Shown piece by piece: positions 18,312 to 21,995 of a stretch of DNA of 64,000 nt. The DNA lies in contig JBCKKC010000001.1 of NCBI GenBank assembly GCA_038904395.1, forward strand, positions 25,759 through 89,758, read 5' to 3'. How positions within the stretch are numbered: the first letter of the stretch is position 1; each line of letters opens with the position of its first letter. The stretch is from Acidimicrobiia bacterium. Lineage in GTDB: Bacteria; Actinomycetota; Acidimicrobiia; UBA2766. The position numbers and the translations under genes are program-made. The notes beneath the pieces are model-generated. The model was not told where the DNA came from and searched no databases. It was given only the letters and a program-made list of their open reading frames with translations.

Positions 18312-21300
18312 TTAGGAGTGGGGGGAAATCGGGTAGGCGGTGATAACTCGATTGTCACGGATGACGATTCGTAGGAAGGCCGTTTCTGTAATCGTGAACT
18401 CGCCATTGGCTTCTCTGGCGATGGTGCCGATCGGTATGCCGCAGTTTGTTTCCACAATTCGGGTTCCGTCGGGCGTGACCCAGTCGACCAGGGGTCGATG
18501 TGCTAGCTGGTCCCGAGCGAGCGTGTGGAGATTGTTTGGGTCCAAAAATCTTTCGAGGAAGACTCCGGGCTGGTCAGCTTGGGCAGTACCGGAATGGCGT
18601 TCCAGGATATGGCGGACATTGATTGAGGGGCCTCTGGCAGGTTGAGGGAGTCGCTGACCGGATTTCGGCGCCGGCTTTTCCAACGTTCGGGTTTGTGGTG
18701 CGCTTGCCTGTGACCTTGCGTGGGAGTTGGACACACTGCCCGCTTTCGGCGCGATCTCAAGTGGCCGTTTCGCCCGCTCAGGCGTGTCTGGCGAGATGGC
18801 CGGCTCGTGTCGTGCCCCAGCCGACTCAGGCACGTCCGCCTCGACTGATACTGATGATGCTGGGGGGGCTGCGGCCGAGTTGGCTCCTTCCCACGGAGGC
18901 GGGACTTCCAAGCCGGCGAGAGTTTGTTCCACCCATTCCAAGTAGGCTTGCATTTCGACTTCGGCCTCGTGATCTTTGCGCGCCTTTTCACGTTGTACGG
19001 CATCGGCCTGCGAGGTCACAGCGGCTGTCACAAGTGGGACCCACTCTCGAAACTCTTGTTCTGCTAGCTCAAATCTACCGACGGCATATGCGATACGGGT
19101 TTGAAGGTTTCTTCTCTCAAACTCGAGGGCTTGCTCGAGAGATGCTCTTTCATTTGCTTCCTTTGGTTGCAAGCGAGTCAGTTCGTTCCTGTATGACGCC
19201 TGTGCTTGGCGAAGGATTTGGGTGAACTCACGGGATTCGATCCGAGCAACTTCAGCATCACGCAGGGATTCTTCGTTCTTTTCTAGATCAGCTCTCTGTT
19301 TTGCCAGCAACTGTCGAAGAGCTTCTCGCTCTCGATTCTCTTGCCTGCGACGCGCTTGGGCAAGGAGCTCTTGTTGTGCCTGCTGCTCCCGAGCGAGCCG
19401 TTCGGCTCTTTCTCGCTGCACCTTGGCTTCCCTGAGTGTTCTGGCATGTTCCAGCATCTGAGCATATTCATTTGATTGTTGGACACCACGCCAATGCTCA
19501 GTCAATTCAGCTCTAGCGGCCTGTTCTTGCTGAGCGATTGCGGCTGTGCCTAGCGTTTTCAAGCGATCAAGAGCTTCTTGGGACATCCGGCGTACGGTCG
19601 ACCAATGACTACGCATCAATCGTTCTCGCTCATCTAGATGAGCTTGTTCCATCTCAGCGCGCTTCTCTCGCCGCCCCAACTCATCACGTTCTTGCTGCAT
19701 GCGACGCTCAAGCTCTGCTGCACTGCGCGAGAATTCATCAAATAGTTGGGCTCTATGGGACGCGTGTTGCCGAGCTAGCTGAAAGAAATCCCATTCCGCA
19801 CGGGCAAGCGCTTGTTCTGCCTCCAGGCGAGTCCGTAGCCTCCCTGGCCCACACACAACAGTTATCCCATTGTCATTGTCTGCAATGAACAGTTCACCAT
19901 GTACGCCAACTGCCACATCAACGGGTTTGGCGAGTTGCGCCCTTGCAGCTAATCCGCCTTCGCGAGCCAAACCTTCTACTCCAGTGCCAGCAACAGTGCG
20001 AATGTAGCCATCCCGGCTCACAGCCCTCACACGCTTGTTGCCGCTGTCGGCGATAAAAAGGGTTCCGTCACCCCCAACGCTCATGCCACCCGGCGTGTCG
20101 AGCTGCGCATTGGTAGCAAGCATTCCGTCACCACTATATCCACGTGACCCGGTGCCAGCTACCGTACGTATCTTTCCTAACGGATCAACCGCTCGGACGC
20201 TATGCGAACCAAGCTCAGAAATATACACAGTGCCATCGGTCGCTACAGCCACGCCATGAGGCATGTTGAGTTCGGCCACCGTGGCGTGACCCCCGTCACC
20301 GCCTGACCCCTCAACGCCACTTCCAGCAAATGGTCGAATCATCCCATCCCGACCCACAGCCCTCACGCGATTTGCAGCCAATTCGACAATGTAGGCGGTG
20401 CCATCTGGACCAAAAGCAATACTCGCCGGAGTCTGCAAACAGGAGACGGTTGCCTTTATGAGATTCTTGCCATCGTCGCCGATTGCAATGGCAGCATCGG
20501 CATTCGTGGGTTTTTCGCCGAACATTGGGGCAAAGGCTGCGATGAGCTTTTCGCTTGACAGACCAGCGAACGATTGTATTATTCCGTCCGGACCGACACA
20601 GCTCACTCGGTCATCGTCAACGATGTAGACCATGCCCGATGGATCAACAGCTACATAGGTTGGACCCACGAGTTTTGCTTCGGTGGCCCGACCGCCATCG
20701 CCACTTGACCCCTCCTCCCCAGTACCAGCAAACCGTCGTAGGACCCCATCAGGAGAAATAGCCCAAATTTGCCTCCCCAAAACATCGGCAAAATAGGTTG
20801 TACCATCAGAACCTTGAGCCACAGACGCCGGAAGCCTGATCGACCACTTTCGATTTGAACGATCTGCCTGTTTTCCCGCAATCGTATACATCAGGCCATT
20901 CGTATCGACAGCACGCACAAGACCCTCTGCCGTGTCTGCTATGTACAAGAATCCATCTGGCCCCACTGCAACCCTGGATGGCAACATCAGGAGCATCCTG
21001 GTAGCTTCACCGATAGTCCCGCTGTCACCGACAGCACCCGCTCCTGCTACTCTTTTGATCTTCCCGTCGGTGCCGACCGCTCGAACACATCGGCTGCCGA
21101 GGTTAGCAATGTAGATGGTGCCATCAGGCCCGACTTCTAAGCCTTGGGGGTACTCGAGCTGAGCCCTAATTGCTTCACCCCCATCACCGCTGGTCCCCGC
21201 CACGCCAGTACCGGCCACTGTCTCTATCAGGCCAGTTGTGCGTAAGGCGCGTACGCGCTGGCCAGCCACGTCCGCTACGTAGATGGTATGGTCCTTGCCC

Positions 21301-21995
21301 ACGGCAATGCCGGCTGGAGTCATAAACTGCGCCAACAAAGACGGACCACCGTCACCACTAGACCCATGTTCTCCCGTGCCAGCAATTGAGCGGATAACCC
21401 CGTCGCGACCAAGGCCCCGAATCGTCCTATTGCCTGCGTCGGCTAAATAGACGACTCCATCGGGCCCCACGGCCAAATCAGCCGGAGTGTGAATCTGGGC
21501 CAGGGTTGCGAGCCCGCCATTGCCACTACATCCTGCAGTTCCCGTACCAGCAACAGTTCGAATAATTCCGTCAGGAGCTATCGCACGAATGCGATGATTT
21601 TTCGAGTCCCCGACATAGATGGTCCCGTCGAGTCCAACTGCTACAGACATTGGTTGGTTCAGACACGCATCAACGGCGCGACCTCCATCTCCGCTGAATC
21701 CTGCAATGCCTGTGCCCGCAATAGTTCGGATCATGCCGTCAGATGGAATGGCAACTACTCGATTGGCAAGATGGTCAGCAATGTAGAGCACTCCGTTCGG
21801 GCCGATCGCGACATCAGTAGGAGCCATTCCAACAAGTCGCGCAGGTCTATTAGTAAAACTGGCAAGGCTATAGATTCGCTCGCCAGAATCAGCCCCAGCC
21901 TTCATCGCATACACTGGCGCGCCAGGCAGAGCGGCCATGCAGGCAATCGAAAGAACTAGCCCTATCAGGCACTTCACAAAACGCATTAAACTCAT
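18312..21995 (-). CDS. giant secreted NHL-repeat protein with central coiled-coil and unknown C-terminal domain (about 1,227 aa)
   Basis: The signal peptide MSLMRFVKCLIGLVLSIACMAALPGAPVYA begins at 21995 (the listed ORF extends spuriously to 22181). There are at least 12 NHL blades (YIADHLANRVVAI, YVGDSKNHRIRAI, YLADAGNRTIRGL ...). A roughly 300 aa Glu/Arg/Ala/Gln coiled coil and a Ser/Pro linker follow. The C-terminal roughly 130 aa globular domain contains ..VRHILERHSG... Confidence 0.8.
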   Translation of the reverse strand: MSLMRFVKCLIGLVLSIACMAALPGAPVYAMKAGADSGERIYSLASFTNRPARLVGMAPTDVAIGPNGVLYIADHLANRVVAIPSDGMIRTIAGTGIAGFSGDGGRAVDACLNQPMSVAVGLDGTIYVGDSKNHRIRAIAPDGIIRTVAGTGTAGCSGNGGLATLAQIHTPADLAVGPDGVVYLADAGNRTIRGLGRDGVIRSIAGTGEHGSSGDGGPSLLAQFMTPAGIAVGKDHTIYVADVAGQRVRALRTTGLIETVAGTGVAGTSGDGGEAIRAQLEYPQGLEVGPDGTIYIANLGSRCVRAVGTDGKIKRVAGAGAVGDSGTIGEATRMLLMLPSRVAVGPDGFLYIADTAEGLVRAVDTNGLMYTIAGKQADRSNRKWSIRLPASVAQGSDGTTYFADVLGRQIWAISPDGVLRRFAGTGEEGSSGDGGRATEAKLVGPTYVAVDPSGMVYIVDDDRVSCVGPDGIIQSFAGLSSEKLIAAFAPMFGEKPTNADAAIAIGDDGKNLIKATVSCLQTPASIAFGPDGTAYIVELAANRVRAVGRDGMIRPFAGSGVEGSGGDGGHATVAELNMPHGVAVATDGTVYISELGSHSVRAVDPLGKIRTVAGTGSRGYSGDGMLATNAQLDTPGGMSVGGDGTLFIADSGNKRVRAVSRDGYIRTVAGTGVEGLAREGGLAARAQLAKPVDVAVGVHGELFIADNDNGITVVCGPGRLRTRLEAEQALARAEWDFFQLARQHASHRAQLFDEFSRSAAELERRMQQERDELGRREKRAEMEQAHLDERERLMRSHWSTVRRMSQEALDRLKTLGTAAIAQQEQAARAELTEHWRGVQQSNEYAQMLEHARTLREAKVQRERAERLAREQQAQQELLAQARRRQENREREALRQLLAKQRADLEKNEESLRDAEVARIESREFTQILRQAQASYRNELTRLQPKEANERASLEQALEFERRNLQTRIAYAVGRFELAEQEFREWVPLVTAAVTSQADAVQREKARKDHEAEVEMQAYLEWVEQTLAGLEVPPPWEGANSAAAPPASSVSVEADVPESAGARHEPAISPDTPERAKRPLEIAPKAGSVSNSHARSQASAPQTRTLEKPAPKSGQRLPQPARGPSINVRHILERHSGTAQADQPGVFLERFLDPNNLHTLARDQLAHRPLVDWVTPDGTRIVETNCGIPIGTIAREANGEFTITETAFLRIVIRDNRVITAYPISPHS

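What the first reader, a model, noticed from the sequence alone, without database searches (positions are those of the whole stretch)
18312..21995. 1,227 aa secreted protein: double NHL propeller + 300 aa coiled-coil + unknown C-terminal globular domain
After the signal peptide there are at least 12 NHL blades, then an ERA/Q-rich coiled-coil of roughly 300 aa (..ERERLMRSHW...EQEFREWV..), a Ser/Pro-rich disordered linker, and a final roughly 130 aa domain (..VRHILERHSGTAQADQPGVFLERFLDPNNLHTLARDQLAHRPLVDWVTPDGTRIVETNCGIPIGTIAREANGEFTITETAFLRIVIRDNRVITAYP). I cannot assign that last domain to a known family. A targeting propeller, a long stalk and a variable C-terminal module is the layout of polymorphic toxins and surface effectors, but no immunity-like ORF follows.
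Basis: partly seen in the sequence, partly recalled or inferred. Interest (0 to 1): 0.55.

Follow-up and report, generated by a model that had tools for sequence, protein, structure and literature searches.

The report
Secreted NHL protein carrying RNase toxin
The "unknown" last 100 residues of this 1,227-residue secreted protein are a divergent copy of the bacterial RNase A-like toxin domain, here attached to two NHL propellers and a long helical stalk and, unlike every reference case examined, with no immunity gene beside it.

Summary
The ORF is real. It lies on the minus strand at 18312..21995 and encodes 1,227 aa. It has a Sec-type signal peptide, 12 NHL blades (two six-bladed propellers), a ~320-aa charged helical region, an Ala/Ser/Pro linker and a ~100-aa C-terminal domain.

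Pfam does not recognise that domain directly, but four lines of evidence identify it as a divergent member of the bacterial RNase A-superfamily toxin domain (Pfam PF18431; type structure CdiA-CT of Yersinia kristensenii, PDB 5E3E):
- The only two relatives in 1.8 billion proteins hit PF18431 below threshold.
- Profile-profile comparison with nine verified PF18431 domains gives 93.8% probability, E 1.7e-7, end to end.
- Foldseek's most probable matches for the AlphaFold model are two RNase toxin domains.
- The experimentally important His, Thr and Tyr align (HILERH…, …VITAYP).

The setting is unusual. Export is by Sec, the N-terminus is propellers, and no T5/T6/T7 secretion genes were found. 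No immunity gene follows. The next gene encodes a different secreted propeller with a degenerate copy of the same domain.

I read it as a new variant of a known toxin family, of moderate interest.

The parts
18312..21995 (-). Whole gene, 1,227 aa plus stop codon (protein P0001)
   Evidence: ORF list and translation. Exact match to a singleton NCBI protein.
21906..21995 (-). Signal peptide, aa 1-30 (MSLMRFVKCLIGLVLSIACMAALPGAPVYA|M); Sec / type I by inspection
   Evidence: Sequence. Basic n-region, hydrophobic core, V-Y-A cleavage motif. No lipobox at the Cys residues. No predictor was run.
20841..21863 (-). NHL beta-propeller 1 (blades 1-6, about aa 45-385)
   Evidence: Pfam NHL and TEN_NHL. 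Blade cores at residues 68-348 with 56-aa spacing.
19830..20840 (-). NHL beta-propeller 2 (blades 7-12, about aa 386-722)
   Evidence: Pfam. Blade cores at residues 398-700.
18861..19829 (-). Charged helical stalk, aa 723-1045 (E/A/R/Q/L-rich); conserved in register in P0122 and P0123
   Evidence: Composition and heptad test. Alignment A2 shows invariant columns through this region. No Pfam or PDB sequence match.
18624..18860 (-). Ala/Ser/Pro-rich flexible linker, aa 1046-1124
   Evidence: Composition. pLDDT below 50 for the part that was modelled.
18315..18623 (-). C-terminal RNase A-superfamily (PF18431-like) nuclease domain, aa 1125-1227
   Evidence: hhalign against 9 verified PF18431 domains: probability 93.8%, E 1.7e-7. 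Foldseek to 5e3e_D and 9v8i_B, probability 0.96. Sub-threshold PF18431 hits of the relatives.
18594..18611 (-). Motif H1129-I-L-E-R1133-H1134; H1134 aligns with the catalytic His175 of CdiA-CT(Ykris)
   Evidence: Alignments A1 and A3 and hhalign. The Ykris sequence LIDRH175VGKTE was decoded from the mutagenesis primer in PMC5435912.
18330..18347 (-). Motif V-I-T1219-A-Y1221-P; aligns with Thr276 and Tyr278 of CdiA-CT(Ykris) (KIIT276GY278P)
   Evidence: The Thr is Ser and the Tyr is Phe in P0123; PMC5435912 reports Tyr-to-Phe as frequent in the family.
16462..18051 (-). Adjacent downstream gene (P0134, 529 aa): signal peptide, Vgb-lyase-like propeller, Ala-rich linker and a degenerate copy of the same C-terminal domain
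   Evidence: Pfam Vgb_lyase 8.1e-18. Translation.
16465..16764 (-). Degenerate RNase A-like C-terminal domain of P0134 (ends ...HQILAAYPTP; Thr replaced by Ala)
   Evidence: hhalign against A1 E 4.5e-4. BLASTP E 1e-3. Shuffle p = 2e-4 to 4e-3, same register. Against the PF18431 reference profile E 0.018. Alignment A3.
14702..16012 (-). Third co-oriented secreted gene (P0135, 436 aa): low-complexity, Asp-rich, internally duplicated protein. Whether it belongs to the system is unknown.
   Evidence: Translation. No Pfam or NCBIfam hit.

Best explanation
The gene encodes a Sec-exported modular ribonuclease.

Shown:
- After signal-peptide removal the protein has two six-bladed NHL propellers, a ~320-aa charged helical stalk, a ~80-aa flexible linker and a ~100-aa C-terminal domain.
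- That domain is a divergent, shortened member of the bacterial RNase A-superfamily toxin domain (PF18431, CdiA-CT of Y. kristensenii type).

Inferred:
- The domain cleaves RNA by metal-independent transesterification. His1134 corresponds to Ykris His175. Thr1219 and Tyr1221 correspond to Thr276 and Tyr278. Arg1133 or Arg1149 may stabilise the transition state.
- The propellers act as the binding or targeting module. The stalk and linker present the nuclease at a distance.
- The protein acts outside the producer, as a toxin or effector against other cells.
- The producer is protected by exporting the unfolded protein rather than by a cognate immunity protein.

The adjacent gene P0134 is a second secreted propeller protein with a decayed copy of the same nuclease domain. 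The locus is therefore a small tandem family, not a toxin-immunity pair.
For: Domain identity:
- An exhaustive HMMER search of 1.84 billion representatives found only two true relatives, P0122 and P0123. Both have the same architecture.
- Their C-termini hit only PF18431: E 0.0016 over model positions 16-113 of 113, and E 0.028. The family consensus hits PF18431 at E 0.2.
- Nine plasmid-borne reference domains were verified as PF18431 at 64-117 bits. Profile-profile hhalign of our three sequences against them gives probability 93.8%, E 1.7e-7, over 99 columns from HILERH to ITAYPI. Against a single Bacillus LXG toxin domain it gives probability 82%, E 1.1e-5.
- The AlphaFold2 model built with alignment A1 has pLDDT 84-94 over residues 40-118. 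Foldseek's highest-probability PDB matches (0.96) are 5e3e_D and 9v8i_B. 5e3e_D is the CdiA-CT(Ykris) toxin chain; chain identity comes from PMC5435912. 9v8i_B is 107 aa, the length of the YxiD C-terminal RNase toxin.
- His175 aligns with an invariant His in our family. Thr276 and Tyr278 align with Thr/Ser and Tyr/Phe.

Secretion:
- The N-terminus has a signal-peptide layout.

Precedents for Sec-exported members:
- Bacillus RNase A-like lipoproteins (PMC5435912).
- Ribocin of P. aeruginosa (PMC13189344).
Against: - The window's own domain gives no Pfam hit, even at E 10. Its relatives score below the Pfam gathering cut-off (19.7 and 15.7 bits against 27).
- Foldseek E-values are weak (0.1-0.4) and TM-scores borderline (0.47-0.52). 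The N-terminal helix that carries the His motif is modelled at low confidence.
- The Arg186 equivalent is not clearly conserved.
- The window's domain is mildly acidic (pI 5.9), whereas its relatives are basic.
- PMC5435912 states that all homologues it found sit next to probable immunity genes. The annotated reference loci I fetched have a small gene immediately downstream of the toxin gene. This locus has none. An active cytotoxic RNase without immunity is therefore atypical.
- The target, the delivery route and the cell-envelope type of the host are unknown.
Confidence: 0.6

Rival explanations
1. Assimilatory or extracellular RNase. The protein is exported to digest environmental or matrix RNA for nucleotides and phosphate. 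The propellers tether it to a surface or polymer. It never enters another cell, so no immunity protein is needed.
For: - PMC5435912 proposes exactly this role for the Bacillus RNase A-like lipoproteins, which are conserved rather than polymorphic.
- Here too the C-terminal domain is conserved among the three relatives rather than swapped.
- No immunity gene and no dedicated toxin-secretion genes in the window.
Against: - A 1,100-aa targeting and stalk apparatus is elaborate for a digestive enzyme.
- Even the Bacillus lipoprotein gene is followed by a small putative immunity gene.
- The family is very rare: three members in 1.8 billion representatives. That is unlike a housekeeping scavenging function.
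Confidence: 0.2
2. Pseudo-enzyme or binding module. The C-terminal domain keeps the RNase A-like fold but is catalytically inactive. It serves as an RNA-, protein- or ligand-binding domain on a surface adhesin.
For: - The Arg186 equivalent is not conserved.
- The subfamily has lost about 12 plus about 20 residues relative to PF18431.
- The window's copy is acidic.
- The neighbouring paralogue has lost the conserved Thr. This shows that decay of the active site occurs in this lineage.
- Absence of immunity is expected for an inactive domain.
Against: In P0001, P0122 and P0123 the two His of H-x-x-x-R-H-x-G are invariant, and the Thr/Ser and Tyr/Phe positions are occupied by residues compatible with the active family. 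These three sequences share only 37-41% identity in the domain. This argues for selection on the active site.
Confidence: 0.12
3. C-terminal sorting or secretion signal domain. On this view a module shared by two adjacent secreted proteins at their extreme C-termini is a recognition tag for an export or anchoring system, not an enzyme.
For: The same kind of domain sits at the very C-terminus of two neighbouring signal-peptide proteins with unrelated propellers, after a flexible linker. This is the typical placement of C-terminal sorting domains.
Against: - Profile, fold and active-site evidence all point to PF18431.
- No sorting-domain model in Pfam or NCBIfam matches.
- No sortase, T9SS or exosortase genes were seen in the window.
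Confidence: 0.04

Closest known systems
CdiA-CT of Yersinia kristensenii / Pfam PF18431 RNAse_A_bac (PDB 5E3E; PMC5435912)
   Same: - Homologous ~100-113-aa alpha+beta nuclease domain at the extreme C-terminus of a large exported protein.
- Shared GH-x-x-x-[RK]-H-x-G motif and C-terminal [IV]-x-T-x-[YF]-P motif containing the residues shown by mutagenesis to matter.
- Best Foldseek match.
   Different: - Below the Pfam threshold, at 15-21% identity to the reference domains.
- Two loops are deleted and there is a subfamily-specific invariant Cys (C1185).
- Carried by a Sec-signal/NHL/helical-stalk protein rather than CdiA, Rhs, T6SS or LXG/WXG100 carriers.
- No VENN or other pre-toxin motif and no adjacent immunity gene.
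Bacillus cereus-group RNase A-like lipoproteins (e.g. WP_000822712.1; locus L002)
   Same: A PF18431-type domain exported by the general secretory pathway rather than by a contact-dependent system. It is conserved rather than polymorphic. A non-competitive (scavenging) role has been proposed (PMC5435912).
   Different: 172-aa single-domain lipoprotein, still followed by a small putative immunity gene. Ours is 1,227 aa, is not a lipoprotein, and carries propellers and a stalk.
Ribocin (RbcN, PA14_21120) of Pseudomonas aeruginosa (PMC13189344)
   Same: - A signal-peptide-bearing bacterial RNase A-fold nuclease that is very divergent in sequence from CdiA-CT(Ykris).
- The same His ... Thr-x-Tyr catalytic constellation (H60, T159, Y161).
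- It does not cleave bacterial H69; the paper's text, as far as I searched it, does not mention an immunity protein.
   Different: Small single-domain protein that cleaves eukaryotic rRNA helix 69. I could not obtain its sequence, so no direct comparison was made.
Sec-dependent polymorphic toxins (WapA of Bacillus) and nuclease colicins (E3, D)
   Same: Works like: a large N-terminal binding or trafficking part and an elongated spacer (the coiled-coil receptor-binding domain in colicins), with an RNase toxin at the C-terminus. WapA is Sec-exported. This comparison rests on my own knowledge and on PMC5435912.
   Different: WapA uses YD repeats and colicins use T and R domains without a signal peptide. 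Both always have immunity genes. No homology to either N-terminal part was detected here.
Oscillatoriales cyanobacterium 'SMC domain protein' OCQ92111.1, listed among the Ykris homologues in PMC5435912
   Same: A coiled-coil-annotated carrier with a C-terminal RNase A-like domain. A long helical carrier is therefore not without precedent.
   Different: Known to me only from the figure legend.

Membership tests
PF18431 RNAse_A_bac (bacterial RNase A-superfamily toxin domain) | Sequence scores at or above the Pfam gathering cut-off (27 bits) | tested here: not met
   Window domain: no hit at E<=10. P0122 scores 19.7 bits (E 0.0016), P0123 15.7 bits (E 0.028) and the consensus 13 bits. Positive controls score 64-117 bits.
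PF18431 RNAse_A_bac (bacterial RNase A-superfamily toxin domain) | Homology detectable by profile-profile comparison over the whole domain | tested here: met
   hhalign of our 3-sequence profile against 9 verified members: probability 93.8%, E 1.7e-7, 99 aligned columns. Against one member: probability 82%, E 1.1e-5.
PF18431 RNAse_A_bac (bacterial RNase A-superfamily toxin domain) | RNase A-like / BECR alpha+beta fold | tested here: inconclusive
   AF2 model pLDDT 84-94 for residues 40-118 but below 50 for the His-motif helix. Foldseek's top-probability hits are the toxin chains 5e3e_D/B and 9v8i_B (probability 0.90-0.96, TM 0.42-0.52, E 0.1-0.4). This is consistent but not decisive on its own.
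PF18431 RNAse_A_bac (bacterial RNase A-superfamily toxin domain) | Conserved His175 and Thr276 (both invariant in the family) and Tyr/Phe278 | tested here: met
   H1134 is invariant. T1219 is Thr, Thr, Ser and Y1221 is Tyr, Tyr, Phe in the three relatives. They align with the reference motifs. The Ser in P0123 is a conservative departure from 'invariant Thr'.
PF18431 RNAse_A_bac (bacterial RNase A-superfamily toxin domain) | Arg186 (proposed transition-state stabiliser) | tested here: inconclusive
   The aligned column holds Val in our family. An Arg lies four residues later in two of three members. Arg1133, next to the His, is invariant.
PF18431 RNAse_A_bac (bacterial RNase A-superfamily toxin domain) | RNase activity (metal-independent, cCMP hydrolysis) | not testable with these tools
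   Needs biochemistry.
Polymorphic toxin system (CDI / Rhs / LXG type) | Cognate immunity gene immediately downstream | tested here: not met
   A 260-bp gap is followed by a secreted 529-aa propeller gene. The small ORFs there are overlapping, Trp/Cys-rich and implausible. An HMM of 4 CDI immunity proteins, plus phmmer with 7 proteins encoded just downstream in the reference loci, found nothing in the six-frame translation of all 64 kb. An immunity protein of another fold, or one encoded elsewhere, is not excluded.
Polymorphic toxin system (CDI / Rhs / LXG type) | Conserved N-terminal carrier with different C-terminal toxins in different strains or paralogues | tested here: not met
   The only proteins sharing the stalk (P0122, P0123) carry the same C-terminal domain. 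The 120 best NHL relatives align only to the propeller half, covering at most 58% of the query. Only the 64-kb window of the source genome was available.
Polymorphic toxin system (CDI / Rhs / LXG type) | Dedicated secretion or trafficking module (TPS/FHA, Rhs/YD + PAAR/VgrG, WXG100/LXG) or pre-toxin motif | tested here: not met
   Pfam on the protein finds only NHL-type propeller families. The neighbouring genes scanned are sulfotransferases, metabolic genes and housekeeping genes.
Nuclease colicin / pyocin | No signal peptide; T-R-C domains; immunity and lysis genes | tested here: not met
   A signal peptide is present. There is no immunity ORF. The stalk has no sequence match to solved colicin or pyocin structures.

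The most novel reading that the evidence does not exclude
This small family (P0001, P0122, P0123) may be an immunity-free, Sec-exported RNase A-type effector with its own built-in targeting apparatus: twin NHL propellers plus a helical stalk. On this reading its substrate is absent from the producer. Candidates are eukaryotic ribosomes or RNA of a predator or host, as for Ribocin, or RNA of prey cells reached without a contact-dependent secretion machine. The neighbouring decayed copy (P0134) would then be a catalytically altered partner, not a relic. This would be a delivery mode for RNase A-like toxins distinct from the T5, T6 and T7 systems described so far.
Probability: 0.25. Interest if true: 0.65.

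Novelty: new variant of a known kind. Interest (0 to 1): 0.45.

Why it matters
Bacterial RNase A-like nucleases were recognised only in 2017. They are described almost entirely as cargo of contact-dependent systems (CDI, Rhs/T6SS, T7SS), paired with immunity genes.

This subfamily differs in several ways:
- Pfam misses it.
- It rides on a Sec-exported NHL-propeller and stalk carrier.
- It lacks a neighbouring immunity gene.

It therefore widens the known sequence space and the set of carriers for this fold. It also gives a concrete case for asking how an RNase toxin can be deployed without self-protection. The possible answers are export-coupled safety, a substrate the producer lacks (as with Ribocin), or loss of toxicity.

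The practical gain is an annotation for three "hypothetical" proteins and a seed alignment for finding more.

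Tried and rejected
Searches that led nowhere:
- Direct Pfam and NCBIfam scans of the C-terminal domain, the last 362 aa and the 78-aa ORF downstream gave nothing.
- Word-indexed homologue searches with the domain and with alignment A1 gave nothing.
- PDB sequence searches with the domain, with A1 and with the stalk gave nothing meaningful; one chance hit to Cap9 at E 1.6.
- The single-sequence AF2 model (pLDDT 59) gave only noise in Foldseek.
- Foldseek against viral structures was uninformative.
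- Genome and metagenome scans with A1 patterns gave no confirmed locus. The source genome and the genomes of P0122 and P0123 are therefore not in those collections.
- An exact-DNA scan for the Y. kristensenii cdiA-CT, using the published primer sequence, gave no match.
- The look-up of encoding contigs for P0001, P0122 and P0123 found nothing on record. The gene neighbourhoods of the two relatives could not be examined.
- Cluster look-ups of eight window proteins returned singletons without names, so the organism stays unidentified.
- HMMER with the A1 profile, or with my 9-sequence reference profile, did not by itself connect the window's domain, P0134 and PF18431. Only profile-profile comparison did.
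- The promoter/terminator scan, tandem-repeat, tRNA and Rfam scans added nothing about the locus.

Ideas rejected:
- The repeat proteins P0121 and P0124-P0129 match only query residues about 46-81, through a repeated TSWQTPDGP..VEHLAG unit. They are not the same domain.
- The 78-aa ORF at 17988..18224 is not a credible immunity gene. It overlaps the start of the next gene, has an odd composition and has no family hit.
- A metalloprotease HExxH reading of HILERH fails, because the Glu is not conserved.

Full report
**1. The observation**

The feature is a single uninterrupted ORF on the minus strand, window 18312..21995, of 1,227 codons. Exactly this protein is present once in the public collection: NCBI source, a singleton cluster, on a 115,486-bp contig, without a name.

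- The N-terminus, MSLMRFVKCLIGLVLSIACMAALPGAPVYA|M, has the form of a type I signal peptide. This is by inspection; no predictor was available.
- Pfam finds NHL (2.4e-39) and TEN_NHL (2.1e-63) across residues ~50-720.
- A motif count gives exactly 12 blades at ~56-aa spacing, meaning two six-bladed propellers.
- Residues 723-1045 are Glu/Ala/Arg/Gln/Leu-rich with almost no Pro or Gly. My heptad test is only weakly positive (z 2.6; dominant period 3.6-3.8). I therefore call this region a charged helical stalk and leave "coiled coil" open.
- Residues 1046-1124 are Ala/Ser/Pro-rich and disordered in the model.
- The final globular domain is ~100 aa (1125-1227).

**2. What the C-terminal domain is**

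Direct scans of Pfam, NCBIfam and PDB sequences find nothing. An exhaustive phmmer run over 1.84 billion representative proteins returned only two genuine relatives:
- P0122, 834 aa, matching at residues 724-829.
- P0123, 1,214 aa, matching at residues 1112-1212.

The other hits are repeat proteins that match one short stretch.

Both relatives have the same build: signal peptide, NHL propeller(s), a stalk that is conserved in register, an Ala-rich linker and this domain at the very C-terminus. The three domains share 37-41% identity. Invariant positions are H-I-x-x-R-H-x-G-x-A-x-x-D near the start, C-x-x-x-I-G-T in the middle, and L-R-I-V…V-x-x-A-x-P-I at the end.

Four independent lines then converge on one family.

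(i) Pfam. Scanned individually, the P0122 and P0123 domains hit one Pfam family only, PF18431 RNAse_A_bac.
- P0122: E 0.0016, 19.7 bits, model positions 16-113 of 113.
- P0123: E 0.028.
- Family consensus: E 0.2.
- All three are below the 27-bit cut-off.

(ii) Fold.
- AlphaFold2 run with the three-sequence alignment gives pLDDT 84-94 for residues 40-118: one helix followed by six strands.
- Foldseek against the PDB gives two matches at probability 0.96: 5e3e_D (TM 0.47/0.48) and 9v8i_B (TM 0.48/0.52, rmsd 3.5 Å).
- 9v8i_B is 107 aa, the length of the YxiD C-terminal tRNase domain resolved in that crystal. YxiD is an RNase A-like/BECR fold (PMC12700104).
- The E-values are weak (0.1-0.4).

(iii) Profile-profile comparison.
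- I decoded parts of the Ykris sequence from its published mutagenesis primers: LIDRH175VGKTEAELLNR186V and GYKIIT276GY278PTP.
- A tblastn with the first fragment found a Bacillus plasmid LXG toxin. Its C-terminus recovered 35 plasmid records, many of them annotated "RNase A-like domain-containing protein".
- Nine diverse examples were extracted: T7SS/LXG, Streptomyces WXG100-linked, Pantoea, a Rhizobium gene next to Hcp and VgrG, Ralstonia, and a Bacillus lipoprotein.
- All nine were confirmed as PF18431 at 64-117 bits over the full model.
- hhalign of my three-sequence profile against these nine gives probability 93.8%, E 1.7e-7, over 99 aligned columns from the His motif to the C-terminal motif.
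- Against the single Bacillus domain it gives probability 82%, E 1.1e-5.

(iv) Active site.
- The family motif G-H-[TL]-[IL]-x-[RK]-H-[VI]-G aligns with our R-H1129-I-L-E-R1133-H1134-S-G.
- The C-terminal [FY]-[IV]-[LIVR]-T-[AGS]-[YF]-P aligns with R-V-I-T1219-A-Y1221-P.
- H1134, T1219 and Y1221 correspond to His175, Thr276 and Tyr278. Mutation of these residues impairs the Ykris toxin.
- The Tyr-to-Phe change seen in P0123 is described as frequent in the family.
- The Arg186 equivalent is not clearly kept.
- The subfamily is a trimmed version: two loops of ~12 and ~20 residues are missing. It has its own invariant Cys (C1185).

I conclude with about 90% confidence that the domain is a divergent RNase A-superfamily (PF18431-type) nuclease domain. 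It fails the formal Pfam threshold. I therefore file it as a divergent subfamily, not an ordinary member.

**3. Context**

The three consecutive genes on the minus strand all start with signal peptides:
- P0001, the gene under study.
- P0134 (16462..18051), 529 aa, with a Vgb-lyase-like propeller.
- P0135 (14702..16012), 436 aa, low-complexity and Asp-rich, with internal duplications.

Reading P0134, I noticed that after an Ala-rich linker it ends …THDCGKLVGY…HQILAAYPTP. This is a diverged copy of the same domain.

| Test of P0134 C-terminus | Result |
|---|---|
| hhalign against A1 | E 4.5e-4, 78 columns |
| BLASTP | E 1e-3 |
| Smith-Waterman shuffle test against the three members | p = 4e-3, 1.6e-3, 2e-4, always the same register |
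| Combined shuffle test | p <= 3e-4 |
| hhalign against the PF18431 reference profile | E 0.018 |

HMMER alone does not detect it. In P0134 the conserved Thr is Ala and the His motif is altered (FHTDFHG), so this copy is probably attenuated or inactive.

Other neighbours:
- Upstream, 58 bp away and co-oriented, is a 720-aa protein with two sulfotransferase P-loops. Two more sulfotransferase genes lie beyond it on the other strand.
- Downstream of the three secreted genes is a response-regulator-GAF-SpoIIE phosphatase.
- The rest of the window is ordinary chromosome, including GatA/GatB, ParC/ParE-like topoisomerase, AtuA and acyl-CoA carboxylase genes, and RtcB.
- GC content is even across the locus.
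- No T5, T6 or T7 secretion component was seen among the genes scanned.

**4. Immunity**

In the annotated reference loci I fetched, a small gene follows the toxin gene at once. In most it is annotated "contact-dependent growth inhibition system immunity protein". PMC5435912 states that all homologues found are adjacent to probable immunity genes.

Here the 260 bp after the stop codon hold no credible ORF. I also searched the six-frame translation of the whole window two ways, and neither found anything:
- with an HMM built from four of those immunity proteins;
- with phmmer, using seven proteins encoded just downstream in the reference loci.

This is the clearest departure from the known family. 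An immunity protein of another fold, or one encoded elsewhere in the genome, cannot be excluded.

**5. How it most likely works**

Shown: the domain architecture, homology of the terminal domain to an experimentally characterised RNase toxin, and conservation of the residues that matter there.

Inferred:
- The protein crosses the cytoplasmic membrane unfolded via Sec and folds outside.
- It uses its propellers to bind a target, with the stalk and linker holding the nuclease out.
- The nuclease cleaves RNA by the metal-independent His / Tyr-Thr chemistry proposed for CdiA-CT(Ykris).
- Self-protection would come from export, or from a substrate the producer lacks.

Precedents for Sec-exported members exist. 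The Bacillus lipoproteins are thought to scavenge nucleotides (PMC5435912). Ribocin of P. aeruginosa has a signal peptide, the same H…T-x-Y residues, and cleaves eukaryotic but not bacterial ribosomes (PMC13189344).

I cannot tell whether the target is bacterial, eukaryotic or extracellular RNA. The organism and its envelope type also remain unknown.

Rivals:
- A digestive or extracellular RNase (0.2).
- A catalytically dead binding module (0.12).
- A C-terminal sorting domain (0.04).

**6. Comparison and novelty**

It works like a modular RNase toxin: a carrier, a spacer and a C-terminal nuclease, as in CdiA, Rhs, WapA or the nuclease colicins.

| Criterion | Result |
|---|---|
| Membership of the PF18431 superfamily by profile-profile homology | Supported |
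| Membership by fold | Supported, moderately |
| Membership by active-site residues | Supported |
| Pfam gathering score | Not met |
| Polymorphic-toxin system: immunity gene, variable C-termini, dedicated secretion or pre-toxin modules | Tested and not met |

A coiled-coil ("SMC domain") carrier from a cyanobacterium is listed among the Ykris homologues in PMC5435912. A helical carrier is therefore not unique. I found no description of an NHL-propeller carrier.

Verdict: a new variant of a known kind. It is a rare, unannotated subfamily, with three members in 1.8 billion representatives, in a new carrier context and without the usual immunity partner. Interest is moderate (0.45). It would be higher if the immunity-free deployment turns out to reflect a non-bacterial target.

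Noticed in passing
window 16462..18051 (-), especially 16465..16764: The gene immediately downstream encodes a different secreted propeller (Vgb-lyase-like). Its last ~95 aa are a decayed paralogue of the RNase A-like domain. It ends ILAAYPTP, with the conserved Thr replaced by Ala and an altered His motif.
   Followed up: partly
window 14702..16012 (-): A 436-aa signal-peptide protein with no family hit. It is low-complexity, with two internal duplications (GGAKS[KQ]QPG[GA]KPAAKK…; MQR[VA]GTG.SDD…LPPG.VR[IV]P…RP.PV.W) and a strongly acidic, Asp-rich C-terminal half. It is the third co-oriented secreted gene after the two propeller proteins.
   Followed up: no
window 22054..24216 (-), 24247..25170 (+), 25302..26216 (+): A cluster of sulfotransferase-domain genes flanks the locus. 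The 720-aa one ends 58 bp upstream of the toxin gene and contains two PAPS-binding P-loop motifs (YIAGTGRSGSTLL, WIVGAQRSGTNMI), so it looks like a tandem double sulfotransferase.
   Followed up: no
window 3326..5632 (-): A second large NHL protein (768 aa) with a lipoprotein-like N-terminus (…LVAAC). It ends in an NHL blade and has no toxin-type C-terminus. No carrier with swapped C-termini was therefore seen in the window.
   Followed up: partly
window 10641..11723 (+) and 12873..14543 (-): A Fic-domain protein and a response-regulator-GAF-SpoIIE (PP2C) phosphatase lie just beyond the three secreted genes. A regulatory link to the locus is possible but untested.
   Followed up: no
window 49038..52831 (-): A ParE/GyrB-like gene (679 aa) is followed by a short ParC/GyrA-like gene (570 aa) in which Pfam finds only the DNA_topoisoIV domain.
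   Followed up: no
L003 (Streptomyces sp. NBC_00454 plasmid), locus 232..3360: This reference locus carries two RNase A-like genes in tandem: a 566-aa gene and a 99-aa stand-alone gene, each followed by a small gene. Tandem duplication of this domain therefore also occurs in classical systems.
   Followed up: no
Foldseek viral hit A0A8S5P6H1: A 439-aa phage 'minor capsid protein' aligns over 111 columns with the model (TMq 0.44, probability 0.80). It may be a phage polyvalent protein with an RNase-like C-terminal module.
   Followed up: no
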